Assembly: GCA_000002445.1 (NCBI GenBank)
Contig: CM000208.1
Coordinates: 1,344,001-1,408,000 of the forward strand
From: Trypanosoma brucei
Taxonomy: Eukaryota
Direction: 5' to 3'
DNA: 64,000 nucleotides
The notes beneath the pieces were generated by a model that was not told the origin of the DNA, ran no database searches, and saw only the letters and a program-made list of their open reading frames with translations. Positions 14,550-63,787 of this stretch are shown here, in pieces (within the stretch, counting starts at the first letter, position 1; every line of letters starts with the position of its first letter). A program made the translations under genes and the position numbers.

Positions 14550-15093
14550 GTTTCTAACATTTCTTTTTTCCAAACTTGCTTTATTAAAGATGCTGGGCCT
14601 GGGGATGTGCCGTGTGTTATTTCACGTGATGTCTCAGGGGGTGAGAGCATGGTGCTCTGCAGCAGCTCTTGTCTCCCTCTTTTTTACCCTACCCTCCGTC
14701 TCTTGTTCTGCCTATTTTTTCATTTGGATATATTAGTTTAAGCTACCAGTATTATTCTCCTAATACTTCAATATTATTTACAACAAAACCCCCTTTTGAC
14801 TGCTCGATTGGAGGTGAAGGCCTACCCCTCGAAGGTTTAGGGGGTTTCTAAAGGTTAACTCAAATCGATGTCTTAGTGGACTCGTACACCCTTGGTAGGG
14901 TTTCCACGCACATTCAAAGGTGGTTGCCTACAAACTATTTTATGTTTTATTTGTTTTTTTTTCACTACCGCCGATGTGTGGGAAAGTATCGTTCAGTATT
15001 TTCGTCCTTCTTACTTACCGTCCTTCTCGTATCTCCCCCCTCTCCTTTCCTTTTAACCCTCGCTTGATTAATGTTTGTAAGAAACATAGGAGG

Positions 15094-36228: not shown

Positions 36229-37261
36229 ATGTTTTTGTTAGTAGGGCTGGCGAGTGACTGGTTTTCCCTACCTTACCTCAGTAAATACCCTGAAGAGAGA
36301 GAGCAAGAGGTTAGGCGAGTGGAGTAGTATGATATGGGGAGCTTAACGAAGGGTGATTATTTTACTATTATCATTGTCTGGAGAGGGGAAAAGCGGGACG
36401 CTGTACTTAACAGTGGACAGAACAGTGAAGTAGGAACATGTAGTGTAGCAGTCGTAGAATATTGAGGAGTAAGGTAATATAGTTCGGTACTGAGAAATGG
36501 AGGGAAACGGTCTCCCTTTCAAACACTTTCTTTTTTTACTTCTTCCTTGCGGTTCCGGCTCATTGAAACGTGTTCAATATGATTTGCGTAGGCGAATTAT
36601 GTGCATCTTTGTGCCGCTGTGTTCGCGTGTGGGTAGTACTTGGAAGGACGCCGTGCTGCAGTGCATCATCAGAAGTTTTGTTCACTGTCATCCCCTTCTA
36701 CTTTCTTTTTGTCATTCTCAGCGCCGAGCTTCAACCGGGAAGAGGCGTTGTGGGGCGGTGACGTATAACATTATCGTTTAGTGAGTTCCTTTTTTGGTTG
36801 TTTGCTAGTTGGAACCGAGCACTGTGGTAGTTGAGAGGTGTGATGATTACTGGAGGAACAATTGATGAGGTGTATCCGGTGCCTTAAATTCGGTGGTCTC
36901 GCATTTATGCGATAGTGTCATTCTGATATGATCGCACACCTCCACTGTTTCAGTGGTGGCACTTGACAACTTCAGCACATACCTTCAAACTTTCTTCGCT
37001 TCATACCGGAGCGAAGCTAAACCACAAACATTGGCGTTTCACCTTCTTCGTACTACACGTTGGAAGGGCTCAACGCTTCGTGTTGCCAATTCTTGAGGAT
37101 TTTGTTTCCCCTCCCGCACGATTTCCTTGCGCTGTCTAGTTCATCAAAACTCTTATTTTATTTTATTTCTTGCATGGTTGTTGCCCTTCTGTCTTGTCCA
37201 TTCCCATTCAGTAGTGTTGTAGTTTTTGTAACTCTGTGGGTGAAAGAAGGGGGGGGAGCAT

Positions 37262-37300
37262 CACACCAAAACCCTCCTCTCTCTTTCTCTCTTTGCTCAG
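37262..37300 (+). promoter_or_regulatory. Polypyrimidine tract plus AG: candidate spliced-leader trans-splice acceptor for the inositol 5-phosphatase gene
   Basis: cacaccaaaaccctcctctctctttctctctttgctcag / gttgcagagg, with the ATG 18 nt downstream. This matches kinetoplastid trans-splicing signal architecture (established knowledge). Confidence 0.5.
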
Positions 37301-37317
37301 GTTGCAGAGGAGGTGGA

Positions 37318-42762: not shown

Positions 42763-43184
42763 GGGAGTTAACACATCTCCATGAAATTGCAGCTGACACA
42801 CGAGTTGTACCACGGCACATAACACATAGACTCCATCACTTTACACAGAATAAAACCTACAACCTCCAATCGTTGCTACTTTAAACATCACACAGAAAGG
42901 GGTGGGAGGTGGCAAGGGGGGGGGAGAGAAAAGTAAAGCAAAGGGTTTACAAAAGTTTGAGGTGGTGTCAACAACTGTTGTGCCATTACAGAAACGGAAA
43001 AAGCACAGTGCTGAAGCTACTGTGCGATACAGTCAGCAATTTAAGTTTACCCAAGAATTGTTAAAGATAAACCGTCACTACCTTCAGCGACTTTGGATTT
43101 TACCAGAGGTGTGGACAGGCGGTAACACAAAACATAATTACAGGTGACGGTTTGGAACGTAGAGCCCTCCATTTAGTTTCTGTT

Positions 43185-44747
43185 ATGAAAGCCCGGCGAC
43201 GTGGAGGGTCCCTACATGCAGAACTCCCCTTTACATATACGCTGTTCAGCACCATTGACGTCTACGGTGATGACTTACTCGATTTTACAGGAGATGACAA
43301 ACCTGAAAGACATGCTGAGGTTACGGAATTCCTGCGCAGGAGGGGATCGGGTGCATGTCGTGATGCTCCTCTTGGGCCGTCATCGTACCTTCACATGAGA
43401 GAACCCTTCAGTTACATTGCCGAAGGCTCCATCAGTGAAAACACATCCGATGCAGGCGGCAGCTTTGCCCGTGTGGAAGATGCCATGCAACACGTGTGGT
43501 TCATTTCGCAGCGTGATGGAATCAGCACTCCGTTTGCTCTCAACTTCTCGACATCTGCGCAGTTTTTAAGGTACGCGGAGAGGGAATCGTTGCAGTTTCC
43601 GACGTTAAGATGTGGATCATCCACAATGGCTTCGGAGCCCATTGCAGCACATGAAGGACCTGCTAAGTGGTTGGATATTCAAACAAAGAACAAAACTCTC
43701 GTTACGGATATTCTTTCCCACTTCCCCGTCTCGGCGGATACAGTCGAACACTGCTGCTATCCAGATGATATGGATCGTGTTATTGCACATTCCACGCTTG
43801 GATATTTCTTCTTTAACCTCATGTGTACACCCATCGCCTTAGGGGAAGTGGCACGTGGCCGCCATCAAGTGAAAAGCGTCATACAGCAGCGACTTGAAGC
43901 TGCAATGAGCGCCGGTCCGCGTTCTTCGACCCCATCGGCTGTCGCCGTTTCTGTTATAGTTTTCTTTGATTGGGTCGTAACGGTGCATGAGGAGCCCTTT
44001 CATGAGTTTGATGACTTACTGCGTTTTATACTGATTAACTGTGGTAATCGGGCGCCCGCATCAAACAACCGAAGGCTCATGCAGGTGATGACGGCCCCTT
44101 TCATATTCGCTAGTTTCTTTCAAATTGTTGTGGGACACTTATTAGACAGCGAATCGCTAACCATGATAGTGGACGAGGTCAGTGATCTTGTGTTTCTTTC
44201 CAAGAGCACAGAAGGTCACAACGAAGAGGTTGTGCAGCGTATTACCAACGCGCGCCGGTGCTTTGCCGAGTACGCCGCCGAGTTGACTAGACGTGAGTAC
44301 ATTGCTTCTGTTCTTCTACATTCGCATATGATGGATTCGTTTCTCACAAAAGACAAAGTTTGCCGTACACAAATAGAGAGCGCTCAAGCTTACCTTTATC
44401 GTATGAGTGATGAAGTTGGGGACTGTCGTGACACAGTCGCACTGACAAATTGGTACCAGAATGTGAAGGACACGTGGCACCATCTTCAGTACGGTAATAA
44501 GGCACTCCGTCAAACAGTTTTGTTTACTGAGTTGATTAACATTATGTACCCCCTCATCACACTTCAAACGCTTTTCTCCCTTAACGTGCGGATCCCTTTC
44601 GCTTACTACGAGGATCAAATGGAAAAGGATTTGAAACCGTTTTTCATTATGATGGGGATTGTGTTATTCTTTTTGTTGTTGTGTGGGCGTGCGATGTATG
44701 CTCTGTGGCACAAGAAACACTGGTCGACGCGCCTGCTGGCAACGTAG
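43185..44747 (+). CDS. Hypothetical protein with two closely spaced C-terminal TM helices (CorA/Mrs2-like topology, but no GMN motif)
   Basis: The ORF track starts at TTG 43152, and the first ATG is 43185. The C-terminus reads ...LINIMYPLITLQTLFSLNVRIPF - AYYEDQMEKDLKP - FFIMMGIVLFFLLLCGRAMYALW - HKKHW. Confidence 0.45.
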   Translation: MKARRRGGSLHAELPFTYTLFSTIDVYGDDLLDFTGDDKPERHAEVTEFLRRRGSGACRDAPLGPSSYLHMREPFSYIAEGSISENTSDAGGSFARVEDAMQHVWFISQRDGISTPFALNFSTSAQFLRYAERESLQFPTLRCGSSTMASEPIAAHEGPAKWLDIQTKNKTLVTDILSHFPVSADTVEHCCYPDDMDRVIAHSTLGYFFFNLMCTPIALGEVARGRHQVKSVIQQRLEAAMSAGPRSSTPSAVAVSVIVFFDWVVTVHEEPFHEFDDLLRFILINCGNRAPASNNRRLMQVMTAPFIFASFFQIVVGHLLDSESLTMIVDEVSDLVFLSKSTEGHNEEVVQRITNARRCFAEYAAELTRREYIASVLLHSHMMDSFLTKDKVCRTQIESAQAYLYRMSDEVGDCRDTVALTNWYQNVKDTWHHLQYGNKALRQTVLFTELINIMYPLITLQTLFSLNVRIPFAYYEDQMEKDLKPFFIMMGIVLFFLLLCGRAMYALWHKKHWSTRLLAT

Positions 44748-47981: not shown

Positions 47982-49751
47982 ATGAAGCGAGCACCTTGTT
48001 TGTCACGGTCACTTGCTGTGGGTAGTGCCGCCGTAATCTTAAGTGATGTCGCATCGGATTCCATTAAGCCTTACATGCCGTGGTGGTTGATTTCTCTCAC
48101 CTTCATTTATCGCCTATTTCTTTGTGCGACTATTCGCACTGTGGAGGCCCCGGACGAGTGGTGGCAGAGCACAGAAGTGGCATATAATATGGTTTTTGGA
48201 AAGGGGCATTTGCCGTGGGAATGGCGTTACGGGTTGCGCTCTGTTTTTTTTCCGGCTGTTGTGGCACTACCTTTCTATCTGTTGAAGTTGCTTGGACGCG
48301 ACACAACGTGGGCTGTTTGGTTCGCCCCACGTGTGTTGCAAGCACTGGTTCTCACACTAATAGATGTTAGTGTATTTCGCATGGGTGCTACGCTGGATGA
48401 ACTACTGGCGAAACGTGAACTGGAATTAGCTGAGGAAATGCGGCAGTCAAAGACAAAGGGATTTTCTTATTTTCGTGAAGTCTTCGTGTCTCGCAGTCGA
48501 CGAGGTATTTGCAACTCCATATCGTATACGGCACTGTTGCTCTCATTGAGTAACTGGTACATGGCCTACTGTGGAGTGCGGCTGTACGGCAACGTCATTG
48601 AAGCCTTGCTGGTGCTTTTAACGCTGCAGCAGCGTCGCTACGTCCCGTTTCTGCTTCTCACTGGACTCGCCTCAGCAATTCGAGTGACATCCGCCGTTGT
48701 CCTTTCACCCCTTGTTTTTCGTCACTTAGCGAATGCCACGCGAGAACATGGATTCACTCGGGGGCTGTTCCGGATCGTTTTAACAGGCCTAATCGTGCTT
48801 GTAGCTGTGTTAGGGGGAGTAATGGTACTCGATTACTGTTTTTATGGCCGGTGGGTCCTGACGCCACTTGCTTTTTTCCGATTCAATGTGCTACACAACC
48901 TCAGCCGCTTCTTTGGTGAGCATCCGTGGTACTTCTACGTGGGCCCTGTGCTCGTTGGTATTGTGGGTCCCCATGTTCTCTTCACAATTGCAGCGCCTCT
49001 TGTGTTGTGGCGTGATACCGCTTCCCGTGCCGTCTCCCGGCCTGTTCTTGGGATGCTGGGCATCGGTGCATGGACACTAGGATTCTATTCCTTGATTGAT
49101 CACAAAGAAATGCGTTTTGTTTTTGTAGTCATCCCATTGTCCCTTATTACAGCTGCCTTTGTGCTGGTGCGTTGGAGTCGAACATCGGCTGTAGTAGTGA
49201 AAATGAACCGTCTGTTTGTATTGTTCAACATTGTTATGATCTATTTGATGGGCTACGTGTACCGGAGAGGCCCTCTGGATGTAATGGCTGAGGTGCGTGA
49301 CGGCCCGAGAATTAACCGGCTCGACGTAATTGCAACATGTTACACGGTGCCCGGATATAGCTACATGCACAGGAAGGTAAATCATCTGGGTTTCGTTGAC
49401 TGTTCTATTGACTTGGATGAGAAAACGGGACTTCCTAAAGTTACGGAAGATATAATGTTTCGCCGCTATCCGAAAGAATATGTGTTGTGGAGATATGATG
49501 GTAAACATAGTTTTAACATGGGTGATCTGGAGGAAAGTCGAAAGGCTTCGGAGCTGCAGAGTGTTGTGATGCCGAAATCTGCGCCTCATCCCGACGCAAT
49601 GGTAATGACTCGTGCAGTAGCGAAGGAAATAGAGGAACCATTCCTTAAGAGACACGGTTACAGACTTTATCGTACGTTTCTACACAGTCCATTAACACTG
49701 GCTCCCTATGAAGACATTTATATACAAATGTGGGTCAAGGTGACGAAGTGA
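47982..49751 (+). CDS. GPI10: GT22-family Dol-P-Man-dependent alpha-mannosyltransferase, most like GPI mannosyltransferase III (PIG-B / GPI10)
   Basis: It has the family signature near the N-terminus, APDEWWQSTEVAYNMVFGKGHLPWEWRYGLRS (48148..48245; compare the PIG-B pattern HPDE.FQS.EVAH....G.G.LTWEW...IRS). At least 8 further TM helices follow. At 589 aa its size matches PIG-B/GPI10. Confidence 0.7.
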   Translation: MKRAPCLSRSLAVGSAAVILSDVASDSIKPYMPWWLISLTFIYRLFLCATIRTVEAPDEWWQSTEVAYNMVFGKGHLPWEWRYGLRSVFFPAVVALPFYLLKLLGRDTTWAVWFAPRVLQALVLTLIDVSVFRMGATLDELLAKRELELAEEMRQSKTKGFSYFREVFVSRSRRGICNSISYTALLLSLSNWYMAYCGVRLYGNVIEALLVLLTLQQRRYVPFLLLTGLASAIRVTSAVVLSPLVFRHLANATREHGFTRGLFRIVLTGLIVLVAVLGGVMVLDYCFYGRWVLTPLAFFRFNVLHNLSRFFGEHPWYFYVGPVLVGIVGPHVLFTIAAPLVLWRDTASRAVSRPVLGMLGIGAWTLGFYSLIDHKEMRFVFVVIPLSLITAAFVLVRWSRTSAVVVKMNRLFVLFNIVMIYLMGYVYRRGPLDVMAEVRDGPRINRLDVIATCYTVPGYSYMHRKVNHLGFVDCSIDLDEKTGLPKVTEDIMFRRYPKEYVLWRYDGKHSFNMGDLEESRKASELQSVVMPKSAPHPDAMVMTRAVAKEIEEPFLKRHGYRLYRTFLHSPLTLAPYEDIYIQMWVKVTK

Positions 49752-50267
49752 AAATTAGTAGTCGGTGAAGGGGACGCAATCGGGGTGTGTCTAAATATTT
49801 GTTTATTATGATAATGCTGCCTCCTGTAGTGTTCTACAATTTTGTTTGTGTCAAATGGATAAATGACGGTTATCCCTTTCTCCCTTCTTGCGTTTCCTTA
49901 CCGACAAATCAAACGTTCACATTTTTTTTTTGATTTGTATATTCACTTAGCCTACTAACCCCATTCTTGGTCCTCGGTTCAGTATTCGTTGTTTGTGCAT
50001 GTGCGTGCAAGCTGTTTCCCGCGCTGACCGTTTGGTCTTAAGGTATTGTTACGTGAACAAACGGCAGTGGCTCGTTCAACAATAATAAACGTGAGCGTTA
50101 CAAGGAACGACAGCGGAACGAAAAAAAAGAGTGATAATGTACTTCGTACTGCCTTGTTGCACCAACAAGTGGACCACGTTCTTTTTTTCTTTTTCTTGTC
50201 TCAAAATCTTCATTTCCAGGTGCGCGAAGGTGAAAGAGCACAATCGGTGGGCGAGGGAGTTTGAACC

Positions 50268-50966
50268 ATGGAGTCTCCGCCCTCAAATGATGAAAAGCAT
50301 GAATTGGCTGTTGCACTTCGTTTGAAAGAAGAGGACGACGCACTTTTGTGTGCCTTCGGACCAGATTACTTCAATGGGGCACGTGTGGGTGCCGGTTGCG
50401 GCGGAGTGTTTACGGCATTTCTCGCATGGTGGTCCTTTGTTGATTTAAAGGAGGATCACAAACTGTGTGACTCGGCACTGCCGACTCACATGCGTGATAG
50501 ATCATGGACTATAAGACGAGGTTTTCACTCGAGGCCCTTCTTCACAGTTGGCTGTGTTGCACTAGGTATTACAACACTAATGAAAGCAACCAAGTTTTGT
50601 TTGGCGAATTATCGGTATCAGGAATTTGCTGCGGATGATATTGGTTTCGAGTTGTTGAAGAGCATGTACGTTAGCTCGCCTGAAGGGCACCGGCAGTTTG
50701 AGGCCTTTGTGAAGAAAACGATTGGTAATGAAAAAGTATTGGAATTACCATCGCCTTCCACTAACTTTGCAACGGGTGGAAAAATCCGCAACAATCAGAA
50801 TCTTACGGAAACACTAGTGAGCAGTACATCGTCATTTTGTGATCGTAAACCACCGTCGTTTTGGGATGGAGTGGCTGTTGGAATTATGGGTTCCGTCATG
50901 GACTGCTACTTACCGTGCAAACCCCTCTATAGTTACTATGGCATGAGGTGCGGTATGCGCCTTTGA
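50268..50966 (+). CDS. Small hypothetical membrane protein (232 aa) with a glycine-zipper TM segment
   Basis: GARVGAGCGGVFTAFLAWWSF, and a second hydrophobic segment FFTVGCVALGITTLM. Confidence 0.45.
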   Translation: MESPPSNDEKHELAVALRLKEEDDALLCAFGPDYFNGARVGAGCGGVFTAFLAWWSFVDLKEDHKLCDSALPTHMRDRSWTIRRGFHSRPFFTVGCVALGITTLMKATKFCLANYRYQEFAADDIGFELLKSMYVSSPEGHRQFEAFVKKTIGNEKVLELPSPSTNFATGGKIRNNQNLTETLVSSTSSFCDRKPPSFWDGVAVGIMGSVMDCYLPCKPLYSYYGMRCGMRL

Positions 50967-51120
50967 GGACCACGAGGTGTCGTAGGACGCGGGCGTAGAC
51001 TTGCGTGCGATTGGCGCATTTTGGAGAAGCGGCAACTTACAAACTGAGTACAAACTTTCTGAGCATCTTTACCTTCCCCTGTTGCAGCAATGCTTAGCCT
51101 CTGCCACTGGGAGCATAGTT

Positions 51121-51208
51121 TATATATATATATTTTTTCGTGTTTTCCTTTTTCTCCGCTTGTGTGTGGTGTGTTGCCCGGGTGAACCCCCTCTCGTTTC
51201 CCTTGCAG
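51121..51208 (+). promoter_or_regulatory. (TA)n plus a long polypyrimidine tract ending in cccttgcAG: candidate trans-splice acceptor for the gene starting at 51305
   Basis: tatatatatatattttttcgtgttttcctttttctccgcttgtgtgtggtgtgttgcccgggtgaaccccctctcgtttcccttgcag. Confidence 0.45.
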
Positions 51209-51304
51209 ATTGCCTTTCCATTTTCGTTTCTTCTCTACATCATTCTGTCTAGCAATTTAGTGAAGTGCATCATCGGCGAACTTCAGTGTTGGAAGATGGT
51301 CCTT

Positions 51305-52336
51305 TATGTAATGGGCCCCCCGCGAGGGAGGGGTGGTGCCAACACCTCACGCCCAATTATAGCAGTCCTTGCTGATGTGTCGTTCGACACCTTTCGGGTC
51401 CGAGTGTTATGTATTGAATCAATAGTCAACCGTCCGATGGCATTCACAGCACTTAAAAACACATATTGTGATGCATATAATCCTACTAGTTCCGGGCCTT
51501 TTCTCTCCGCGGGGAATTCGGACTCGTTAATGGATTTAACTGTTGATGATAAAAAGCAAGAATTAGGCGCATTGAAAGGGTTTCAAGCGTCTCCACCGAG
51601 TGCATTGGGGTCTGTGCTGATTGATATACCCTTAGACACCTCGCACATGTCGCCCGATGACTTCATGTCAATTGCGTTCTCCCCTCGGTGCAATCCACTG
51701 GGAAGCTTCCACCGTCTTAGTGTTTCCGCACCTCTCGTAAAGGCGGCGTACATTCACGACTACGTGATACACGGCCCCGATTCCCCTGGGCGGAATGACT
51801 TTATACGTGCGATGGAAAGGCGCGGTAGTGCGACGAGGCGGGATACCTCCACGCGCTCTGTTAGCCCCCTAACTCTTCCTCCTACATTTCCTTTACCCAG
51901 TGGTGTTTATGAACCCCTGATGTGGGAGGAGGTAGAGGCACGTGCACGCTTAGTACACTTGGAAGATGTCACCCGCCGACAGTGTCATTCAGCAGAGGTG
52001 TCAGGTTATCTTCGGGCTCAGCGGCTCACACGTTGCAAAACGTCATTTCACTTCTCCGACTTCTCAGCGAAGAAAAGAATACATGAGGCCGAGGTGAAAC
52101 TTTTGCGCGAAGATATGGAGGTGCGAGCAAAGCGGGAAAGAGCTGAACATGAGGAGTTCATGCGAGCGATGACGCGTGGGCGGACGCAGTTGTTGAAACT
52201 GCCAACTATTACAACATCCGGTAAAAAATACAAACCTACGGAGGTAGACAAGCACGTAGCGCGGGTCTTAACCTTCAGGAAACGTGCGGCTAACAAATCA
52301 GACAGCAAGGAGAGACATTTTCTTGAAATACTCTAG
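51305..52336 (+). CDS. Hypothetical protein (about 343 aa) with a basic coiled-coil C-terminus
   Basis: The ORF track starts at GTG 51140. The first ATG is 51305, downstream of a strong poly-Y tract and an AG at 51207..51208. C-terminus KKRIHEAEVKLLREDMEVRAKRERAEHEEFMRAM. Confidence 0.45.
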   Translation, partial: YVMGPPRGRGGANTSRPIIAVLADVSFDTFRVRVLCIESIVNRPMAFTALKNTYCDAYNPTSSGPFLSAGNSDSLMDLTVDDKKQELGALKGFQASPPSALGSVLIDIPLDTSHMSPDDFMSIAFSPRCNPLGSFHRLSVSAPLVKAAYIHDYVIHGPDSPGRNDFIRAMERRGSATRRDTSTRSVSPLTLPPTFPLPSGVYEPLMWEEVEARARLVHLEDVTRRQCHSAEVSGYLRAQRLTRCKTSFHFSDFSAKKRIHEAEVKLLREDMEVRAKRERAEHEEFMRAMTRGRTQLLKLPTITTSGKKYKPTEVDKHVARVLTFRKRAANKSDSKERHFLEIL

Positions 52337-53094
52337 TAATGTACAAATTGTGGTGATATACTTAGAACAGCCGGTGCAACTCTGCGGTTGCGATATGTAT
52401 TTCTATTATCTTACTTCATTTTTTTTAAAATGTTCTTATCGCATTTCTTCTCGTCACACCGATATTGGCGTATACTAATATTTGTTGATATGATCTATCG
52501 GCAAAAGTAAATAAGCTATATAGTGCCGTGTTCATTGAAACTATTTTCATTTTTGGAAGTCTTCCCCACGCGCTGTTGATGCCGGGATAGATACCTTGAT
52601 GTGACCATTAAACATATATTATTCATGTGATGCACCAGGGATGAGGAGGGAGAGAGACTTTTGAAAATTTTGTGGCCCCTTTTTTTATAACACCTACTGT
52701 CGTGTCTGGTTATTACCCGCCTTGTATCTCTGTGTTAATTGTGATGAGTACCCCAACAGTAACACCATGAAGAAACTGTCAGAGAGCAGGGGGAAATAAC
52801 AACAGAAAAGACAACGATTGAGGTGGTTATATGTAAAGCTTGTAGAAGTGATCAGTTTTCTGTGTTTGTGGTTGCTGTACGTGTACTTATAATTCCTCGT
52901 TTCTTCCTTTTTTCCATTACTCATTGCTTAAATTCTTTTGATTTGGTGCGGTGACTGCCGGGCCCCTTCATTCTGTATTCCGGTTGTGAAGAGAACCTTA
53001 AAAGTGTGAAATGTTGTTTTTCTTTTTTGAGGAAGGGGGGAGAGGATACCAGTTTTTGTGCCCCGACTTATGAATATATACAAATAGATAAACA

Positions 53095-53130
53095 TATATA
53101 TATATATATATAGATAGATATGTTTTTTCC
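53095..53130. repeat. (TA)9 followed by (TAGA)-like repeats
   Basis: atatatatatatatatatatagatagatat. Confidence 0.75.
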
Positions 53131-53286
53131 CGTTTGTTGCCGCAGCGCATCCCCTATTATTACTGGTCTTGTTTGCTCTTCACAATAACAATAATAATAA
53201 TTGTCATTTTTTTTATTACTTTTCGATTAAGTGGCGGATCGAATTGCGAAAAAAAGCATAGGTTTCACCAACGATCGAACTGAAAC

Positions 53287-55083
53287 ATGTCCGGTCAGGG
53301 AAATTTGCTGCGTATGTTCCCCCTTCAACACAAGAAGATGTCCCAATTTTCGCTCAGATTTTTATCCGTCGGTGTTTGTGAAATGATGAATTGCGCGGAA
53401 AGGGAATACATGAGCTCATTCACTGTGCATAACAAGTTTAACCGCAGTGCTTACGCTGGTATCAACCCTCTTTCTTCCTCTTCAACCATTCAGTCACCTC
53501 TGATGGCGGATGTCGTGGCGGCTGGACTATTTGATAGTTACACAGGACATTCCTGCTCTCGGTTCATCTCGAAGTACCTTGCGAGGGCATTAAGTATGCA
53601 CTCCACGCTACCTGAAGAAATTGCATGGTTGCGGGGAGAGTTGAAGGATGACCCACTCGTTACAGTTATGACATCTTCATTATCGCGCTCAAGGGCAATG
53701 CATGGGACACAAATAGATAAACAAGGAGGAAACGGGGATATGCATACCATTCGCCCGCTGTTCTCAGAGTGGGACATGCAGCAATACGCGATGCTTGCTG
53801 ATATAGCTTTCTTAAGGGCTTGCGAGGACTCCAAGTTTGAGAGTTCCCTACCTGCTACAGAGTTGGCTAACGAAGGGTCCCGTGCTGTGTGGTTCACAGC
53901 AACAGCCGCCCCTTTTTCATTGCACGAGCAGCGCCGCTGCGAGCGGAGTCGTGAGGAAGCGAGCCATTGTGGTATGGCCCCGCCCCCTCTTCGCTCTCTC
54001 GATATGCCACAAGTTGCTTCAGAATCGCAAAGGCGCGCTTCTGCGGATGGGAAAGTTGGTAAGAAGTCACCAAAGTTCGCGGCGGATGAAAAGGAAGACT
54101 TTGAGCGAGAGTTCTGTGTTGACGTGTTGGTGAGCAATGTGGGTGATTCGCGTGCTTTCGGTATCGCCCGTAATCCCCTCACGTGGGGGCAGCGGAGCTT
54201 GCTGGACTCAACGCGGGAACGAGTAGTACCTTTGAGCGTCGATCACAAACCTCTACGTACGCCTGAGTTTCAACGCATCGTTTCCGCCGGCGGAGAAGTA
54301 CGCTCTGAAGTGGGTGACATGATTGATGCGAACCCCTTTTATAACGTGTCGCGTAGCTTCGGTCACTGGTCGATGAAACGTAACCCCAAGCGGGCGCCTA
54401 GTGAGCAGAAAATTACCGCTGTACCCACATGTAGTTCTTGGGAAATGTTACCAGGTGATGTACTTGTCTTGTGTAACCATGCAGTGTTCGAGACGCGGAG
54501 CCAGGAGGACACATCTATCGATGAAGCAGCAAAAGTTGTTGCACGTGAAATCAAACATGGAGCCTCACCGGGGGAAGCTGCGGGAGCGCTATGTGACTAC
54601 GCACTGCGTTTCGGTGCTGGACACTCACTGCAGGTGTTAGTTGCTTTGGCAACGGATGGGGGTGAGCACTGTCAGCAGGATAAGTCGGGGGAGCCGTATC
54701 GCTACGATTCAGTGATTCCTGGACCCATTTATGTACAACCATGCCGCCATTCCCTGTCGTATTCCGCGGCGCTATTAGCTGACTGCAGGCGTTGTGGTAT
54801 TACGTTGCCTGATTTACTGGAGAAAAGATGGCTTCACGTTCGAGATGAGCTTTGTAGCAGATACAAATTACCACTAATGTACTGTTATGGGAAAGAGTGC
54901 AGTGCTCTTCAGCAGCAAATGGAGGAAGAGGCTCTTCTTTTCAGCGGTGTGTCTTTCCCGCCAGGAAAGAGAGAATTGAGCGAACTGACAGAAAAAGAAT
55001 TGAGATGCGTTCGGGAGGAGTTTGAAAAGGTGGCGAGATCTATTATGCCATCCAAAAATCGTTTGCCGGAAAGGAAGGTTTGA
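53287..55083 (+). CDS. Divergent PP2C-family (PPM) protein phosphatase-like protein with N- and C-terminal extensions
   Basis: PPM motifs are present but atypical: GLFDSYTGHSCS (53524..53560) in place of GVFDGHGG, VSNVGDSRAF (54136..54160), and VDHKP (54238..54252). The usual DG(L/M)WD metal-binding motif is not evident (VLVLCNHAVFE). Confidence 0.65.
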   Translation: MSGQGNLLRMFPLQHKKMSQFSLRFLSVGVCEMMNCAEREYMSSFTVHNKFNRSAYAGINPLSSSSTIQSPLMADVVAAGLFDSYTGHSCSRFISKYLARALSMHSTLPEEIAWLRGELKDDPLVTVMTSSLSRSRAMHGTQIDKQGGNGDMHTIRPLFSEWDMQQYAMLADIAFLRACEDSKFESSLPATELANEGSRAVWFTATAAPFSLHEQRRCERSREEASHCGMAPPPLRSLDMPQVASESQRRASADGKVGKKSPKFAADEKEDFEREFCVDVLVSNVGDSRAFGIARNPLTWGQRSLLDSTRERVVPLSVDHKPLRTPEFQRIVSAGGEVRSEVGDMIDANPFYNVSRSFGHWSMKRNPKRAPSEQKITAVPTCSSWEMLPGDVLVLCNHAVFETRSQEDTSIDEAAKVVAREIKHGASPGEAAGALCDYALRFGAGHSLQVLVALATDGGEHCQQDKSGEPYRYDSVIPGPIYVQPCRHSLSYSAALLADCRRCGITLPDLLEKRWLHVRDELCSRYKLPLMYCYGKECSALQQQMEEEALLFSGVSFPPGKRELSELTEKELRCVREEFEKVARSIMPSKNRLPERKV

Positions 55084-55984
55084 CATGGTGAATCTCCACA
55101 CCTTTTCTCCCATCCAAGGGGGAATGAGTTTTTGCCGTACCGTTTACTTTGTGAAGAAGAAAGGATGCGACAGTTTTTCATTGTCCTTTTTTTTGTTTGT
55201 TTTACCAGGGGACTTCCTGTACTGTCTGTTCCATGCAGGAACATCAACAGGGCGCCACACCGCTCAGCGCCACAACTACACACTACCCGCAGGCCGTTTC
55301 GTTCGTATATTTTTTTTGTTGTGCTTCAACAAAAAGCATCCCCTCGCGAACTATTCGTGCTGGGAAGCCCGCGAAAGAAATGGCCGGACCCTAAAACGTT
55401 AAAAATTTACGTTTTCTCTTTGATAACGTTACAGAAAAGAGGACCGAACGTAAGTTTTTTTTTTTTGAAAGCCCACCCATCCGACCCCTCCTCACCTCGC
55501 GTGGGAGGCGAGTTAGTGACAGTTTCAGCACTTCCTTATCGCAAATTTTCTTTAACTTGAAATGTTGATTAACCCCTTCTGTTCTTTGAGCGTGCTGATG
55601 ACCTACCAATTTATAAAACCTTTTTAATTTGTTTTTTCCTTTTTTTTTGGGGGGGGTGGTGGTGGTGTAAGGTAGGTAAGGTACTAACTTTTCTGCTCCC
55701 TTTAAACAGAAGATACGATCGAACCAAAAAAAAAATACGAAGGAGAAATTCTTTTTTTAGTGGAGAATTCTTCAAAGGTGTGATCAAGTTAAAGAGGGGC
55801 CACGGCAGCGGTTCTCAGCGCAGACTTCATTAGATAATAAGAACGTACCAAAAAACGGGCGGTGACAGCAACGAGAGGGGGAACATTTCGCATAATTTAT
55901 TTATTATTATTATTTTTTTTTTTTTGGCTTCTAAGCAGAAGCCAATAACGGCAACGACGACAGGGTGAGTAGTGGCAAAGTTGA

Positions 55985-57790
55985 ATGCATCACACGGGGA
56001 TGCCCAATACCCCGCCTCGCGCTTCACAGCCCCGTTACAACTGGTTGGCGGATAACAGAGCCTTGACGCAGGTGCTCACGCACTCAGATAATATGGGTCG
56101 ATTACCCGTTGACATTGTTAGGGATGCCGTTTGCGGTGGCGTTGTATGCGCCTTCACGGACGAAAAAAACCGATACGATGATCAGGTATTTCTTCCGTCG
56201 TCGTGTGATCTTACGGCACTTGCCTTTCTTATATCAGAGGGTTTCTTCGCACCATTTCTCCACCGTACTGTGGGGGATTGGTTTCAGCAATACACAATAC
56301 TGACGGAATCGGGATTTTTTGAACCACTTTCAATTCCTGTGCTTCTTTTCCCCGATTGTTTTTATGACGCCTCGTTCATTGACACATCATTGCCGAGAGT
56401 TTTGTCTCCTACGCCCAGCACAAATGGTAGCATTTCGAGCATGCCAAGTGATTCAATTTCATCGACAGCAGCTGATGTGTTGCACCTCCACAATCTGCGG
56501 TTGCAGGTGGGTGTTCTTCTTCTTAAAAGTATCAATGAGGTCCTACGAGATGCGGAAGTTTGGAAACTGAAGGCCAATAGACAAAAAAGAGGGCAAACCC
56601 CTCCTTCCGATGTGGTCGTTGCCAACGCTGTCATCGCACTCTTTTATGAAGTGAAGATGCTGTTACTCTGCTGTATTATTAGCACAGAACAGGCTTACCC
56701 AAAGGATGGCAGTCATGAAGAAACCCCTTTTAAGTCTGCGAGGAGCTACTTTGAAAGTATATTTAGCACAAAGGAGTTACGTAGAATTTTTGAGGAGCGT
56801 AGCAGACCGGGGGCGGAAGAAGTGATGAGGTGGTTTGATTCCACCTTGGGTGCGTTAACATCGACAGTATCGGGATTATTTTCCAGTTTGCAAGAACGAC
56901 TGCAGGAATTGCTGAATGATGTGTCAGTTGACGGCCGCAGGGTAACAGGAACTCCTGTACAAATTCTTCACCGTCCTCACGACTCCACGAGCACTAATGT
57001 GCTACAACTTCCTTTTGTTCAATCAAAACTCCCTCACCTCCCTCTCCAAACAGGTGAGTTGGCGACACTTCTTTCGCCAAACCCCGGAGAGATGCTGCTG
57101 TGTGATTCAGTTCCATCCCCACTCTCACTGTTGCTACGGCGTTGTGCCACGGTTAAGATGTCTGCCCTGGAACTTCGAGACGGGGTGGAGCAACTCGCAA
57201 TGAATCCGTGGTGGGCTCTTCATTATGCAGCTTCGCAAACCGTCCAGCGCCAGCTATCCGATACTCAGTTTATTCGTTCGGCTGTGGGGAAGAATTCTTG
57301 CTTCCTGATCGAGATAGTGCGGTGGTTGCGGGATGTACCTTCTGATGAGGCAAAGGATGTAGCAAAGGAGAGAGGCAGCGCTTGTAGCAATTCCGAGGGC
57401 ACGAAGCAACAAAATGGAAGAACAAATGGGGAAAGTAATAGGGAGCAGCGGCTTTTGTTGGGGTTGTCTACTTCAAATGAAATTATCGACCACGTTGTTC
57501 ACGATCTCCCCTTTGGCACCGCCGTTGCACAATTAATACGTGAACTCGTTGGCAGTAACTTGTTCACAGAGGAACAGTTGCACAGGTGGATCGGGCGCTC
57601 ACTTAAAGATGTAGAGAGTAAACCACCTGCAACAATCGGATGTTTTGCGGCACTTCTTGTTTTCGTTCTTCTTCACAGTAGGTGGGAACTCCCAGCAGAT
57701 ATACGAGAGATGACAGTCCAACTCTGCTCGCAGAACAAACAGCAGCAGGACTGTGTTCAACTGATTAACATTTTGCAGCGGGGCGCTTAG
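55985..57790 (+). CDS. Hypothetical protein, 601 aa
   Basis: ATG-initiated long ORF on the coding strand. No recognisable domain. Confidence 0.5.
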
Positions 57791-58479
57791 CGTTGACGCA
57801 CTCGCGCAAACGTTGAGTGGTGCCGCATTTGGAAGACATTTCCTTGATGGGTGCTGAGTGGAGTTGTCTTCCGAGGGACTTTGTGCCAAACAGTGTAACA
57901 AATTGCTAAAATCGAATAACGCGCCTCTGGGCAGAACAATCGCGCATGAGGTTTCCCTTGTGACTTCACTGGAACAATAGGTGTTATTATGGAAGAGTGT
58001 GCCCCAGCAGGAGGAAAAAAGGGGGTGAGGGAAAACCACGTCACAACACAAGCCTCATATTCGTGTAAAAAATAATAACAATAATTTTTCATTTACCAGT
58101 TGTATCAGTCTTTACTCTTTAAAAAAAAATGCTTCGACTCACCTGACACGTACCCTTAAGCATCAATAAAGCGGTTGCTTGCTACTCGTGTTATTATTCG
58201 CTCGCCTGTCCAAAGCGTGAGGAAGCGAGCTTTGTTGCTGTGCACGTTTGTCCGCTTTGAGTTTATTTAGTCCCCGTCCTTTGTGTCGTATTGGTAGTAA
58301 CTTTTTCAGTGTCCAAGCAAATTTATTTGGTGCTAATGTAACATGAATAATGAAAGTCGAATCGCCCTCTCGATGTGTTTGCTCCCCTGTACAAGCGCTT
58401 CCTCTTCCTTTTCTTTTCGTGCCTACACTAACTTTTATTTATGTATTGCATTATTTACGTGCTTACGAAAGGGGTTAAA

Positions 58480-59052
58480 ATGCGCAACTACAACAACTTC
58501 AACCGTGTTTGGAAGGCCCCACGACGCCCCTTCGAGAAGGAGCGTCTCGACCGCGAGATGAAGCTCTGCGGGCAGTACGGTCTCCGCTGCAAGCGCGAGA
58601 TTTGGCGCGTCAACATGACTCTCTCAAAGATGCGTCGCACCGCGCGTCTTTTGCTGACGCTTCCGGAGAACCACCCGCGCCGCCTTCTTGAGGGCTCTGC
58701 AATTATGCGCCGCTGCCACGGATATGGTTTCCTCGACGAAGATAAGGACAAACTCGATTATGTGCTTTCGCTCACCGTTCCCGACATTCTCGAGCGCCGC
58801 CTTCAAACGGTCGTCTTCAAGCATGGCCTCGCAAAGTCCGTTCACCACTCCCGTGTTCTTATCCAACAGCGGCACATTGCCGTTGCTAAGCAGATTGTTA
58901 CGATTCCTTCCTTCATTGTCCGCGTGAGTTCTGAGCACCATATCGCCTTTGCGGATGCGTCGCCATTCGGCAACGGCCGACCGGGTCGCGTGAAGCGTGT
59001 GAAGAGGAACGCTGCGAAGAAGGGTAGCGGTGGCGGTGATGATGACGAGTAA
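58480..59052 (+). CDS. RPS9: 40S ribosomal protein S9 (uS4 family)
   Basis: Collinear with human RPS9: [30 protein letters not shown]...[45 protein letters not shown] moved the start to ATG 58480 (MRNYNNF), because the track ORF starts 13 codons upstream. Confidence 0.9.
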
Positions 59053-59363: not shown

Positions 59364-60482
59364 ATGTCCAAGCGTGTTGAAGTTCTGCTTACCCAACTCC
59401 CTGCGTACAACCGCCTGAAGACGCCATATGAAGCGGAACTGATTGAAACCGCCAAAAAGATGACCGCCCCCGGTAAGGGTCTCCTCGCCGCCGATGAGTC
59501 CACTGGTTCATGTTCGAAGCGCTTTGCGGGCATCGGTCTCAGCAACACTGCAGAGCACCGCCGTCAGTACCGCGCTCTCATGCTGGAATGCGAAGGTTTC
59601 GAGCAGTACATCAGCGGTGTCATCCTGCACGATGAGACCGTGTATCAGAAAGCTAAGACCGGCGAAACATTCCCTCAGTACCTCCGTCGTCGTGGTGTGG
59701 TGCCTGGCATCAAAACCGATTGCGGTCTCGAGCCCCTCGTGGAGGGCGCCAAGGGCGAGCAGATGACTGCTGGTCTCGACGGTTACATCAAACGGGCCAA
59801 GAAATACTACGCTATGGGCTGCCGCTTCTGCAAGTGGCGCAACGTGTACAAGATCCAGAACGGCACCGTGTCTGAAGCTGTTGTTCGTTTCAACGCTGAA
59901 ACACTCGCTCGCTACGCTATCCTCTCCCAACTCTGCGGTCTTGTCCCTATTGTGGAGCCTGAGGTGATGATCGATGGCACTCACGACATTGAGACTTGCC
60001 AACGCGTTTCGCAGCATGTGTGGTCGGAGGTGGTTTCTGCACTCCACCGCCACGGCGTTGTATGGGAGGGATGCCTGCTGAAGCCCAACATGGTCGTCCC
60101 TGGCGCTGAATCCGGCCTCAAGGCCACTGCGGAGCAGGTTGCCGAGTACACCGTCAAAACCCTCGCCCGTGTTATTCCCCCTGCGCTCCCCGGCGTGACG
60201 TTCCTATCAGGTGGCCTCAGTGAGGTTATGGCCTCCGAGTACCTCAACGCTATGAACAACTGCCCGTTACCACGCCCATGGAAACTGACCTTTTCATACG
60301 CCCGTGCACTTCAGTCCAGCGCCATAAAGGCGTGGGGTGGAAAGGAATCTGGTGTCGAAGCTGGCCGCCGTGCGTTCATGCACCGCGCAAAGATGAACTC
60401 ACTTGCCCAACTCGGCAAGTACAACCGTGCTGATGACGACAAGGACTCGCAGTCTCTGTACGTTGCTGGCAACACATACTAA
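59364..60482 (+). CDS. ALD: Fructose-1,6-bisphosphate aldolase, class I, glycosomal (N-terminal PTS2)
   Basis: 372 aa. The class I aldolase core is present ([19 protein letters not shown], the Schiff-base lysine region [11 protein letters not shown], and LSGG). The N-terminal nonapeptide RVEVLLTQL (59373..59399) fits the PTS2 consensus R[LVI]x5[HQ][LA]. From memory the protein matches the published T. brucei glycosomal aldolase. Confidence 0.95.
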
Positions 60483-61906: not shown

Positions 61907-62299
61907 TCACTGTGTATCATTTATCCGGGTGTAGTGACGGTGAGTTTCTCGTGGCTGAAGGGGGTTCCTTGCACCATTTGTACTGTGCACTGCGTAACTA
62001 GCATTTTGCCTCTGTTGCTCCTTAAGGGCATAGGTTCATGTAGATTAGCGTCCCGGAGGAATTAGTGTGGAATTGTGTTGGAGAAGCTTCTTGCCTCCGT
62101 TTTAGACCACGATTGTGATAGCCATGACTGTGTGGACGTTTTCCGTGTGTCCCGTGATTGGTGCCCTGTGTTTCCACCTGAAGGTGATTTCCTCCTTATC
62201 ATTTGATTCTTCACTATGATATTCATTTTCACCTTTTAATTTTTTCGTGTGTATGCATTTCACGTAAGGAGTTTAACTAGGGGTAGTCAAGGCGAGCTG

Positions 62300-63787
62300 A
62301 TGGAAGACGATGCTGATGCCTACCTTCGGCGGGTGTCTCAACTGAAGCGGAAACACTTCAGAAAGGATTCTGTCACTGCATATCATCCCACGCCGGTGGA
62401 GGTGGAAACAGCCGACACCAGACCTATACATACCGTGGCTCGAAGGCTACCAATGAAGAAACGAAAGCGGATGTGTGATGATGATGAATTTGACGTTATT
62501 TCTCTTGTGAGGGACGCTGTCAATGTTTCTTCTGGTGGAGTTTTTGTCGCGGATATTCCTTCTACCGGTCCATTGGTTGGTTGTAGTGGTGATAGAAAAG
62601 TATTGCAACAACCGGTGAAAATTACGCTGATGGAAAAGTGGTTTCCTGGGAGGACGTTGCAGAATGCGACTCTGGACCCTGCCCAAGCACCACTGTACCA
62701 GTACACGGAAGTGTCGACGAAGCGAATGAAGGATGCCCGAGAGCGTTTTGTTTCCTTAAAAGCCGGGGTGGAGGATGCGTTGAAGTACTCTTTTGTGGGC
62801 GAGTGCACTAATTTTGACGAAGTTGTCTCCAGAATGACCAAAGAGAGTTGGATTGAGCTTCGCAACACCCTATTTCAAATATCGTCGCGTGCTTCCTTGC
62901 GAAGGAAAAAGGGTGCAGTGAGGGCCATGAAGTACATTTTGTCAACAAATGTTGGGGAACATGTGCCGAAATCCTCAATTTTGCGGCACTGGAACGAATA
63001 TCTTTTGATTCATGGCCCAGAACAGGGATTCCAGCCTACCCTTTCGCTTTTCGTTTGGGTCGAAAGTGCGGGCATTACCGCTCTCTTCACTGCCGTCGTT
63101 AGCCGCGCACTAAAATTGTTTAAGCAAGGCAAAAAACCAATGGCGTACTCGTTTTATGATGCTCAGGAGGAGTCTGAGCCCAGTTGTTGTGATGAGGCTG
63201 CTACAAGTGAAGAAGACGAGTGCGTTGACAGCGGCGAGGTGCTTTCTTGTGAAGGGAGCGTTGAAAAATCGGCAAAGGAGAGTGAACCGATCGCAGTGGG
63301 GACTGGGGAAGGAAACGATAATAATTTAGTGAGGCCGCCTTCCCTAGTGGAGCGCCTTCCTCGACTCGGCGGCTGTTCAGAAGATGTAATATCGCTTCTT
63401 TCGTTCTTGCGCGTATTAATGCCAGTGGACTATCTGGACGAGGATGGGAGGATGATTGGTCGTTCCGCTGGTTACGGCGTTTGGTTGTATGCCTGCTTGA
63501 CCGCTGTTGACACACCCTTTGACCCGGACTTGGACCGACTTGTTCATGAGTTTTTCCGTACTTGTTGCTTACAATTACGGGTACTCGGGGAGGCACACAA
63601 CGTCCGCGGAGATGATCGTGGGGCGATACTGAAAGTTTTCCCATCCCGCAAAGATGACCCCCCTCAGTCGTCACAATACAACTCCCTTGGTGATGTGAGG
63701 AAGGAGGATGTGTTGGCACTCCACACCATTATCGTTGTGCTAGCCAAGTTATTCCGCCTAAATGGTAATCGTTTGGTTCCGCTGTAA
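62300..63787 (+). CDS. Hypothetical protein (about 495 aa)
   Basis: The ORF track starts at GTG 62249, and the first in-frame ATG is 62300 (MEDDADAYLRRVSQLKRKHF). It is a long ORF on the coding strand. Confidence 0.5.
   Translation: MEDDADAYLRRVSQLKRKHFRKDSVTAYHPTPVEVETADTRPIHTVARRLPMKKRKRMCDDDEFDVISLVRDAVNVSSGGVFVADIPSTGPLVGCSGDRKVLQQPVKITLMEKWFPGRTLQNATLDPAQAPLYQYTEVSTKRMKDARERFVSLKAGVEDALKYSFVGECTNFDEVVSRMTKESWIELRNTLFQISSRASLRRKKGAVRAMKYILSTNVGEHVPKSSILRHWNEYLLIHGPEQGFQPTLSLFVWVESAGITALFTAVVSRALKLFKQGKKPMAYSFYDAQEESEPSCCDEAATSEEDECVDSGEVLSCEGSVEKSAKESEPIAVGTGEGNDNNLVRPPSLVERLPRLGGCSEDVISLLSFLRVLMPVDYLDEDGRMIGRSAGYGVWLYACLTAVDTPFDPDLDRLVHEFFRTCCLQLRVLGEAHNVRGDDRGAILKVFPSRKDDPPQSSQYNSLGDVRKEDVLALHTIIVVLAKLFRLNGNRLVPL

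What the first reader, a model, noticed from the sequence alone, without database searches (positions are those of the whole stretch)
53287..55083. PP2C-like protein with degenerate metal-binding motifs: candidate pseudophosphatase
The PPM landmarks are present (FD...GH, NVGDSRA, DHKP), but motif 1 has a 3-residue insertion (FDSYTGHSCS versus FDGHGG). The conserved DG(L/M)WD motif that supplies a metal-coordinating Asp appears to be replaced (VLVLCNHAVFE). The final DN motif is also unclear. If these changes are confirmed, the protein would be catalytically dead or would use non-canonical chemistry, like the pseudophosphatases that act as scaffolds or regulators.
Basis: inference. Interest (0 to 1): 0.5.

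Follow-up and report, generated by a model that had tools for sequence, protein, structure and literature searches.

The report
Trypanosome PP2C-like protein, likely inactive
This Trypanosoma brucei gene encodes a well-conserved protein with a complete PP2C phosphatase fold that has lost most of the residues needed to bind metals and phosphate, so it is probably a non-catalytic "pseudophosphatase"; that loss was already noted briefly in a 2007 survey, and its function is still unknown.

Summary
The ORF is real (53287..55083, + strand, 598 aa). It is 100% identical to T. brucei Q38B45 / Tb10.70.1410, annotated "protein phosphatase 2C, putative".

- Changed: R33->E38 (variable position), E37->M42, D38->S43, G61->S84, H62->Y85, D199->H360, D239->H398, D282->H446, N283->S447.
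- Kept: D60->D83, D146->D287, D243->E402.

None of 40 close homologs, and none of about 15 more distant clade members, has Asp at the D239 or D282 positions. The nearest canonical PP2Cs keep every catalytic residue.

Its detail of a 3-residue insertion in the DGH motif is wrong: DSYTG aligns column for column with DGHAG.

The substitution pattern resembles the human pseudophosphatase TAB1 (H62->Tyr, R33 lost). The replacement His residues are themselves swapped for R, K, Y or Q in some orthologs, which argues against a rebuilt metal site.

The loss of acidic metal ligands in this orthogroup was already published (Brenchley et al. 2007), so this is correct but already known. I found no functional study.

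The parts
53287..55083 (+). Complete ORF (598 aa plus TGA stop) of T. brucei Tb10.70.1410 / Q38B45, annotated 'protein phosphatase 2C, putative'
   Evidence: ORF list. 100% identity to XP_822803.1 / Q38B45_TRYB2. Listed as a 598-aa PP2C in the supplement of Brenchley 2007.
53317..54651 (+). Complete PP2C/PPM fold (residues ~11-455) carrying three insertions
53371..53391 (+). Clade-specific motif G29-V-C31-E32-M-M34-N35 at the end of strand beta1, replacing the canonical 'G.S.MQG' that leads to R33. The R33 equivalent is E38 (53398..53400), a variable position
   Evidence: G29, C31, E32 and N35 are invariant in 36-37 of the aligned homologs. Mapping from hhalign. E38 sits at the 21st percentile of conservation.
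53410..53421 (+). MSSF, the equivalent of PPM1A motif 1 'EDAH': E37->M42 and D38->S43
   Evidence: hhalign. Position 43 is D in 23 homologs, S in 8 (Trypanosoma) and E, A, N or Q in the rest.
53533..53547 (+). DSYTG, the equivalent of 'DGHAG': D60->D83 (retained), G61->S84, H62 (general acid)->Y85
   Evidence: Alignments. D83 is present in 37/38 homologs (S in T. vivax); position 85 is Y in 29 and F in 7.
53599..53766 (+). Insert A (residues ~105-160): helical insertion absent from PPM1A, moderately conserved and confidently modelled
   Evidence: Gap in PPM1A in the hhalign alignment. Helices 109-118 and 123-145 with pLDDT about 90-97. Mean majority fraction 0.55.
53911..54111 (+). Insert B (residues ~209-275): variable, partly disordered insertion between the 'GST' strand and the 'NVGDSR' strand
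   Evidence: Gap in PPM1A. pLDDT below 50 at 234-244 and 260-268. Lowest conservation of the ordered regions, 0.45.
54136..54156 (+). NVGDSRA (motif 6). D287 is the equivalent of D146, a ligand of the third metal; it is retained in T. brucei but not conserved
   Evidence: hhalign. Position 287 is N in 18, D in 14, S in 6 and T in 2 homologs.
54241..54252 (+). DHKP motif, retained (D319 and H320 invariant)
54349..54366 (+). SRSFGH, the equivalent of 'SRALGD' (motif 8): D199->H360
   Evidence: hhalign. Position 360 is H in 37 and Y in 2 homologs.
54469..54492 (+). LCNHAVFE, the equivalent of 'LACDGIWD': D239 (M1/M3 ligand)->H398, G240->A399, D243->E402. N397 is invariant and specific to this clade
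   Evidence: Position 398 is H in 35, R in 3 and Q in 1 homolog; E402 is present in 37/39.
54613..54627 (+). GAGHS, the equivalent of 'GSRDN' (motif 11): D282 (M1 ligand, catalytic)->H446 and N283->S447
   Evidence: Position 446 is H in 36 and K in 2 homologs.
54694..55056 (+). Conserved C-terminal helical extension (residues ~470-590) with a near-invariant D499-C500-x-R502-C503 motif (54781..54795)
   Evidence: Conservation 0.69. Helices 483-551 at high pLDDT. The same PGPxY...DAxRxG extension occurs in the nearest canonical PP2Cs, so it is ancestral. No Pfam match.

Best explanation
The gene encodes a kinetoplastid-conserved pseudophosphatase with a PP2C fold. It descends from a PPM1A/B-like PP2C that had an N-terminal MG start and a C-terminal helical extension. 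It has kept the whole fold, the flap region and the C-terminal domain under purifying selection.

It has lost the chemistry of a PPM enzyme:
- two of the three carboxylates that hold metal M1 (D239->H398, D282->H446);
- the pair that positions metal M2 (E37->M42, D38->S43);
- the phosphate-binding arginine (R33->E38, a variable position);
- the general acid (H62->Y85).

It therefore most likely does not dephosphorylate proteins by the canonical mechanism. The most likely mode of action is binding: it would act as a scaffold, adaptor or regulator of a partner protein through the retained flap and groove surface, the lineage-specific helical insert (residues 105-160) and the C-terminal domain, as TAB1 does in animals.

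Shown here: fold, orthology, the residue substitutions and their conservation pattern.
Inferred: lack of activity and the binding role.
Unknown: the partner and the cellular process.
For: Fold:
- hhalign probability 100%, E=1.7e-55 over PPM1A 1-382.
- AF2 pLDDT 85.1, pTM 0.88.

Loss of catalytic residues:
- The same mapping comes from four independent alignments.
- No Asp at the D239 or D282 positions in any of 40 homologs, nor in the more distant clade members P0041-P0055, P0059 and P0060.
- The 63 nearest canonical PP2Cs keep R33, E37, D38, D146 and D199 essentially invariant.

Relaxed catalytic constraint:
- The R33, D38 and D146 equivalents lie at the 21st-54th percentile of conservation.
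- T. vivax has also lost the D60 equivalent (D83S). T. congolense has H398R. The syntenic ortholog P0035 has H360Y and H446K.

Still a functional gene:
- Intact ORF with 37-63% identity across trypanosomatids.
- Conservation 0.75 in the C-terminal half of the fold and 0.69 in the C-terminal domain.
- Four-gene synteny with a deep-branching relative.

Precedent:
- D38A/K mutants of PPM1A lose M2 and phosphate binding (PMC5390078).

Prior note of the same degeneracy: Brenchley 2007.
Against: - No activity assay exists, so inactivity is inferred from sequence only.
- D83 (D60 equivalent), E402 (D243 equivalent) and, in T. brucei, D287 (D146 equivalent) remain. The three replacements at D199, D239 and D282 are all His, a good metal ligand, and each is conserved in 91-94% of trypanosomatid sequences. 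A remodelled metal site cannot be excluded.
- TAB1 is reported to bind a single metal (recalled from Conner et al. 2006, not checked here).
- No binding partner, localisation or phenotype is known, so the 'scaffold' role is an argument by analogy.
- I could not inspect model coordinates to check the geometry of the site.
Confidence: 0.72

Rival explanations
1. Remodelled metal site with non-canonical chemistry or sensing. D83, H398 and H446 would form a 2-His-1-carboxylate site at the old M1 position, possibly helped by H360, E402 and the invariant C31/E32/N35. This site would bind a transition metal (Zn2+, Fe2+ or Mn2+) and support hydrolysis of an unusual substrate, or act as a metal or ligand sensor.
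For: - All three lost aspartates (D199, D239, D282) are replaced by the same residue, His. Each His is at the 80th-84th percentile of conservation within trypanosomatids, and D83 is at the 90th.
- By homology, D60, D239 and D282 converge on M1 in PPM1A (PMC5390078; fold conservation).
- New invariant polar residues C31, E32, N35 and N397 appear next to the old active site.
Against: - The His residues are lost independently in different orthologs. T. congolense, P0020 and P0025 have H398R and P0039 has H398Q. The syntenic ortholog P0035, and also P0038, have H360Y and H446K. T. vivax has D83S.
- In more distant clade members these positions are filled by K, F, A, L, R, S, Q, M or C with no co-variation.
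- Arg or Lys at a ligand position would occupy the metal site rather than bind a metal.
- The phosphate-binding Arg and the general acid are both gone.
Confidence: 0.15
2. An ordinary active PP2C whose catalytic aspartates were mis-aligned, or have migrated to other positions in the sequence.
For: - It is annotated 'protein phosphatase 2C, putative' in all databases.
- Pfam PF00481 scores above threshold.
- Several invariant Asp residues exist elsewhere in the protein (D172, D319, D391, D412, D437).
Against: - Four alignment methods and a global profile-profile alignment at E=1.7e-55 agree on the mapping.
- The flanking motifs are unambiguous: LVLCNHAVFE against LLLACDGVYE, and FGAxHSLQV against KGSRDNMSV.
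- The other invariant Asp residues (D319 in DHKP, D391 in 'GD', D437) are also present at the same columns in canonical PP2Cs, so they are not compensatory.
Confidence: 0.05
3. A decaying gene or pseudogene with no function.
For: Loss of catalytic residues and a variable, disordered insert.
Against: - The intact 570-640 aa ORF is maintained across Trypanosoma, Leishmania, Phytomonas, Leptomonas, Angomonas and deeper lineages.
- There are more than 50 invariant columns and conserved synteny.
Confidence: 0.02

Closest known systems
Tb10.70.1410 / LmjF36.1260 / Tc00.1047053504163.10, the 'PP2C-like' orthogroup of the TriTryp phosphatome (Brenchley et al. 2007, PMC2175518)
   Same: It is this gene. 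The protein is identical to Q38B45 (598 aa). [quoted passage not shown]
   Different: - The paper gives one sentence and no residue map.
- Worked out here: the full mapping (including loss of R33, E37, D38 and H62, and the three Asp->His changes), the extent of the clade beyond the TriTryps, the ancestral C-terminal domain and the structural model.
- The L. major ID printed in the paper was not found in its own supplementary table, so I could not verify it.
TAB1 (TAK1-binding protein 1), the human PP2C-fold pseudophosphatase (PDB 2J4O)
   Same: - H62 replaced by Tyr, R33 lost, and D239, D282 and N283 all substituted (PMC8622459).
- Acts by protein binding, not catalysis.
   Different: - TAB1 substitutes D60->Asn and D239/D282->Glu. 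This protein keeps D60 (as D83) and has His at D239 and D282.
- The insertions and C-terminal domains differ, so this is an independent, convergent loss of activity.
PPM1A/PPM1B (PP2C alpha/beta) and the protist 'CDGVFE' PP2Cs such as Toxoplasma 2isn
   Same: - Closest fold and sequence relatives.
- They share the C-terminal helical extension, and the flap sequence is well conserved (SRxFGxxxxK, EQK..A.P).
   Different: These are active enzymes with all of R33, E37, D38, D60, G61, H62, D146, D199, D239, D243, D282 and N283. The window protein keeps only D60, D146 and an acidic residue at D243.
RssB C-terminal domain (bacterial PP2C-like pseudophosphatase adaptor)
   Different: A much more distant, truncated fold. 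It is bacterial and is fused to a response-regulator receiver domain.

Membership tests
PP2C/PPM fold superfamily (Pfam PF00481) | Significant profile match to PF00481 | tested here: met
   E=4.1e-14, 53.3 bits against a cut-off of 20.3, but covering only profile positions 115-253. The full-length match was recovered by profile-profile alignment, E=1.7e-55.
PP2C/PPM fold superfamily (Pfam PF00481) | Alpha-beta-beta-alpha sandwich fold superposable on solved PP2Cs | tested here: met
   [not shown]
Catalytically competent PPM phosphatase | M1 ligands: Asp at the D60, D239 and D282 positions | tested here: not met
   D83 is present, but D239->H398 and D282->H446. No Asp at either position in 40 homologs.
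Catalytically competent PPM phosphatase | M2 site: D60, the G61 carbonyl, and E37/D38 holding the metal waters (motif 'ED') | tested here: not met
   E37->M42 and D38->S43 in T. brucei; G61->S84. D38A/K mutants of PPM1A lose M2 (PMC5390078). Many non-Trypanosoma orthologs keep D43 but still have M42.
Catalytically competent PPM phosphatase | Phosphate-binding Arg (R33) and general acid His (H62 in DGH) | tested here: not met
   R33->E38, a variable position at the 21st percentile of conservation. H62->Y85 (Y or F in 36/38).
Catalytically competent PPM phosphatase | Mn2+/Mg2+-dependent phosphatase activity in vitro | not testable with these tools
   Needs recombinant protein. I found no published assay.
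Pseudophosphatase (PP2C-fold, TAB1-like in mode of action) | Retains the enzyme fold but lacks residues essential for catalysis, with the loss conserved among orthologs | tested here: met
Pseudophosphatase (PP2C-fold, TAB1-like in mode of action) | Demonstrated absence of activity and a defined non-catalytic function or partner | not testable with these tools
   No experimental data found; the binding role is an inference by analogy.
TAB1 orthologue | Specific sequence or structural relationship to TAB1, closer than to active PP2Cs | tested here: not met
   [not shown]

The most novel reading that the evidence does not exclude
In trypanosomatids the old binuclear Asp site has been rebuilt into a His-rich pocket: D83, H360, H398, H446 and E402, flanked by the invariant C31, E32, N35 and N397. 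This pocket would bind a transition metal or a small ligand. The protein would then be a non-canonical hydrolase or a metal/metabolite sensor on a PP2C scaffold, rather than a dead enzyme.
Probability: 0.12. Interest if true: 0.6.

Novelty: already known. Interest (0 to 1): 0.25.

Why it matters
Trypanosomatids regulate gene expression almost entirely after transcription, so kinases, phosphatases and their inactive relatives are prime regulatory candidates.

- A PP2C-fold pseudophosphatase conserved across the whole group, with its own helical insert and C-terminal domain, is a plausible scaffold or regulator of a signalling complex. It has no close counterpart in the host.
- The database name 'protein phosphatase 2C, putative' probably overstates what it does. 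Studies that count it among the 13 active T. brucei PP2Cs, or that target it with PP2C inhibitors, should take this into account.
- The basic point was made in 2007. What remains open is the function, not the degeneracy.

Tried and rejected
DSYTG aligns without gaps to DGHAG, and H88 is not conserved.
- My first guess for motif 1, that G29-x-C31...N35 equals G31-x-R33...E37: rejected. The profile-profile alignment and the model's strand pattern place MSSF/MDSF on EDAH instead.
- Migrated catalytic Asp: rejected. The other invariant Asp residues are also present in canonical PP2Cs.
- KKIP7, the kinetochore phosphatase: rejected, it is a PPP-type enzyme.
- Radial-spoke pseudophosphatase: rejected, that protein is STYXL1.
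- Pfam on the C-terminal domain and the N-terminal half alone: no hits even at E<=10.
- Rfam on 50000..58000: no hits.
- Word-indexed search with distant clade members, meant to obtain taxon names: only 3 hits, uninformative. The taxonomic limit of the clade outside the Trypanosomatidae therefore stays unresolved.
- Literature searches by old and probable new gene IDs (Tb927.10.5580.5590 and .5600, inferred by me from gene order and not verified): no main-text mention beyond Brenchley 2007.
- First AF2 model from 17 sequences: poor across residues 296-378 (pLDDT 30-45). It was replaced by the 35-sequence model.

Full report
**What is there.** The window is a segment of Trypanosoma brucei chromosome 10.
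- All large ORFs lie on the + strand.
- The ORF at 53287..55083 (+) encodes 598 aa. It is 100% identical to XP_822803.1 / Q38B45_TRYB2, 'protein phosphatase 2C, putative', and to the T. equiperdum protein; the T. b. gambiense protein falls in the same 90%-identity cluster.
- Downstream lie a DUF5393 gene (55985..57790), ribosomal protein S9 (58441..59052) and class-I aldolase (59364..60482). Upstream lies an Alg9-like mannosyltransferase (47982..49751).
- Rfam finds nothing in 50000..58000.

**Checking the observation.**
- Pfam PF00481 (PP2C) matches at E=4.1e-14, but only over profile positions 115-253.
- phmmer against the PDB gives Toxoplasma PP2C 2isn as the best hit (E=1.4e-11). It aligns LVLCNHAVFE with LLLACDGVYE, and FGAGHSLQV with MNSQDNISV.
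- A family profile of 17 orthologs gives the same register against 2isn and PPM1B.
- hhalign against human PPM1A also agrees.

**Resolving the N-terminal half.**
- Pfam did not align this half.
- An exhaustive profile search of 1.84 billion representatives gave 28 proteins below 1e-30, which form the degenerate clade. Canonical PP2Cs follow from about 1e-26.
- I aligned 45 clade members and, separately, 63 canonical relatives plus PPM1A, then compared the two profiles globally. The result was probability 100%, E=1.7e-55, covering query residues 4-574 and PPM1A residues 1-382.

**Complete residue map (PPM1A -> this protein).**
- R33 -> E38 (variable position)
- E37 -> M42
- D38 -> S43
- D60 -> D83
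- G61 -> S84
- H62 -> Y85
- D146 -> D287
- D199 -> H360
- D239 -> H398
- D243 -> E402
- D282 -> H446
- N283 -> S447

DSYTG aligns column for column with DGHAG. All motif coordinates were verified by translation.

**Conservation of the substitutions across 40 homologs.**
- Position 398: H 35, R 3, Q 1.
- Position 446: H 36, K 2.
- Position 360: H 37, Y 2.
- Position 85: Y 29, F 7.
- Position 43: D 23, S 8, others 6.
- Position 287: N 18, D 14, S 6, T 2.
- D83: 37 of 38.
- No sequence has Asp at the D239 or D282 positions.
- More distant clade members (P0041-P0055, P0059, P0060) also lack these aspartates. They show many different residues there (K, F, A, L, R, S, Q; and Y, A, M, C, F, L at the D199 position).

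**Control with canonical PP2Cs.**
- The 63 nearest canonical PP2Cs keep R33 (55 of 56), E37 (62 of 63), D38, D146 (63 of 63 each) and D199 (61 of 63).
- D60, H62, D239 and D282 were part of my filter for 'canonical', so their invariance in that set is by construction.

**Conservation percentiles within the trypanosomatid alignment.**
- The R33, D38 and D146 equivalents lie at the 21st-54th percentile.
- D83, S84, H360, H398, E402 and H446 lie at the 80th-90th percentile.

**Structure.**
- A first AF2 model from 17 sequences was mediocre (pLDDT 68), although Foldseek already returned only PP2Cs.
- A 35-sequence alignment (A3) gave pLDDT 85.1 and pTM 0.88. Only the variable insert around residues 234-268 was at low confidence.
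- The fold is thus complete.
- Relative to PPM1A there are three insertions:
  - a conserved helical insert (about residues 105-160);
  - a variable disordered one (about 209-275);
  - a short one (296-311).
- There is also a conserved C-terminal helical domain (about 470-590) with a near-invariant DCxRC motif.
- The nearest canonical PP2Cs carry the same PGPxY...DAxRxG extension and an MG N-terminus, as PPM1A/B do. So the degenerate clade derives from a PPM1A/B-like ancestor and the C-terminal domain is not new.

**Orthology.**
- In a deep-branching relative (Logan contigs L002-L004) the gene sits in the same four-gene arrangement as in the window. The matches are:
  - 259-aa protein against the 232-aa window ORF, E=4e-37.
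  - 186-aa protein against the C-terminus of ORF 51140..52336, E=2e-8.
  - The PP2C-like gene itself.
  - The DUF5393 gene, E=3e-11.
- That positional ortholog (P0035) has Y at 360, K at 446 and S at 85.
- T. congolense has R at 398. T. vivax has S at the D60-equivalent 83.
- The replacement residues are therefore not indispensable. Arg or Lys at a ligand position would fill a metal site rather than bind a metal.

**Interpretation.** The chemistry of PPM enzymes needs four things:
- D60, D239 and D282 for metal M1.
- D60, the G61 carbonyl and waters held by E37 and D38 for M2.
- R33 for phosphate binding.
- H62 as general acid.

This rests on PMC5390078, on the review table in PMC8622459 citing Jackson et al. 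2003, and on established knowledge of PP2C alpha. D38A/K mutants alone lose M2 and phosphate. This protein lacks D239, D282, E37, D38 (in Trypanosoma), R33 and H62.

The most likely reading (confidence 0.72) is a non-catalytic PP2C-fold protein that works by binding. The strong conservation of the flap region (SRSFGHWSMK, EQK..A.P), of insert A and of the C-terminal domain fits that reading. The animal pseudophosphatase TAB1 is the nearest functional analogue: it shares H62->Tyr, loss of R33 and substitutions at D239, D282 and N283. It is not a specific relative, so the loss is convergent.

**Rivals.**
- A rebuilt His-rich metal site (D83/H398/H446, a 2-His-1-carboxylate arrangement) is attractive because three aspartates all became His and are 91-94% conserved. 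The independent H->R/K/Y/Q changes, the D83S change in T. vivax and the lack of co-variation in distant members weigh against it (confidence 0.15).
- Misalignment or an ordinary active PP2C is essentially excluded by the concordant alignments (0.05).
- A decaying gene is excluded by conservation and synteny (0.02).

**Novelty.**
- Brenchley et al. [quoted passage not shown]
- Their supplement lists Tb10.70.1410 as Q38B45, 598 aa, and the T. cruzi entry as 586 aa. That is this gene.
- I found no later functional work. A 2017 review says the functions of the Leishmania PPM group are still unknown.
- The finding is therefore correct but already known in outline. The residue-level map, the Asp->His pattern, the breadth of the clade and its PPM1A/B-like origin are refinements.

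**Limits.**
- Inactivity is inferred, not measured.
- I could not read model coordinates to check the site geometry.
- The taxonomic range of the distant clade members is unknown, because they come from unnamed assemblies.
- The current TriTrypDB ID was not verified. From gene order I expect about Tb927.10.5590, which is my inference and not a tool result.

Noticed in passing
window 55985..57790 (+); L002 5292..7631: The gene immediately downstream encodes a DUF5393 protein (Pfam E=1.8e-14). The PP2C-like -> DUF5393 gene order, plus two upstream genes, is conserved in a deep-branching relative. In kinetoplastid polycistrons this shows orthology, not necessarily a functional link.
   Followed up: partly
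window 51140..52336 (+): The 398-aa ORF is listed with a GTG start and has no Pfam hit. Only its C-terminal ~110 residues (254-361) match the 186-aa syntenic protein in L002 (E=2e-8). The real gene is probably much shorter and starts at an internal ATG.
   Followed up: partly
window 53076..53122: A (TA)n / (ATAG)n microsatellite and polypyrimidine tracts lie in the intergenic region upstream of the gene. This is typical of trypanosome trans-splicing and polyadenylation regions.
   Followed up: no
window 53538..54182 (-): A 214-aa antisense ORF lies wholly inside the PP2C-like gene. It is most likely a chance ORF on the non-coding strand of a unidirectional polycistron.
   Followed up: no
window 33432..34703 (+): A 423-aa protein has a strong HORMA domain match (E=1.3e-52). 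HORMA proteins (Mad2, Rev7, Hop1, Atg13/101) are of interest in kinetoplastids, whose spindle checkpoint is unusual.
   Followed up: no
window 5834..9571 (+); 37060..39012 (+); 25958..28831 (+): Three other ORFs were identified: IFT122 (two beta-propellers, TPR and zinc ribbon), an endonuclease/exonuclease/phosphatase-family protein (Exo_endo_phos2, E=1.7e-53), and a protein with a WSD/DDT motif.
   Followed up: no
window 10449..14549, 17609..21766, 14920..16818, 23839..25455, 30429..31865, 43152..44747, 62249..63787 (all +): Seven ORFs of 478-1385 aa have no Pfam match at E<=1e-4. They are probably kinetoplastid-specific proteins of unknown function.
   Followed up: no
window 54781..54795 (residues 499-503) and 54742..54744 (C486): The DCxRC motif is near-invariant in the trypanosomatid clade (C500 39/39, C503 38/39) and C486 is present in 35/39. 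The canonical PP2C relatives have D-A-x-R/K-x at the same place. The cysteines are a clade-specific gain in the C-terminal domain and could form a disulfide or a metal site; this is untested.
   Followed up: partly
Brenchley 2007 text versus supplement: The L. major ID printed for this orthogroup (LmjF36.1260) was not found in the paper's own supplementary table. Other papers also use LmjF.36.1260, but I did not read what protein they assign to it; from memory I believe it is the aldolase ID, so the printed ID may be a slip. I did not resolve this.
   Followed up: partly
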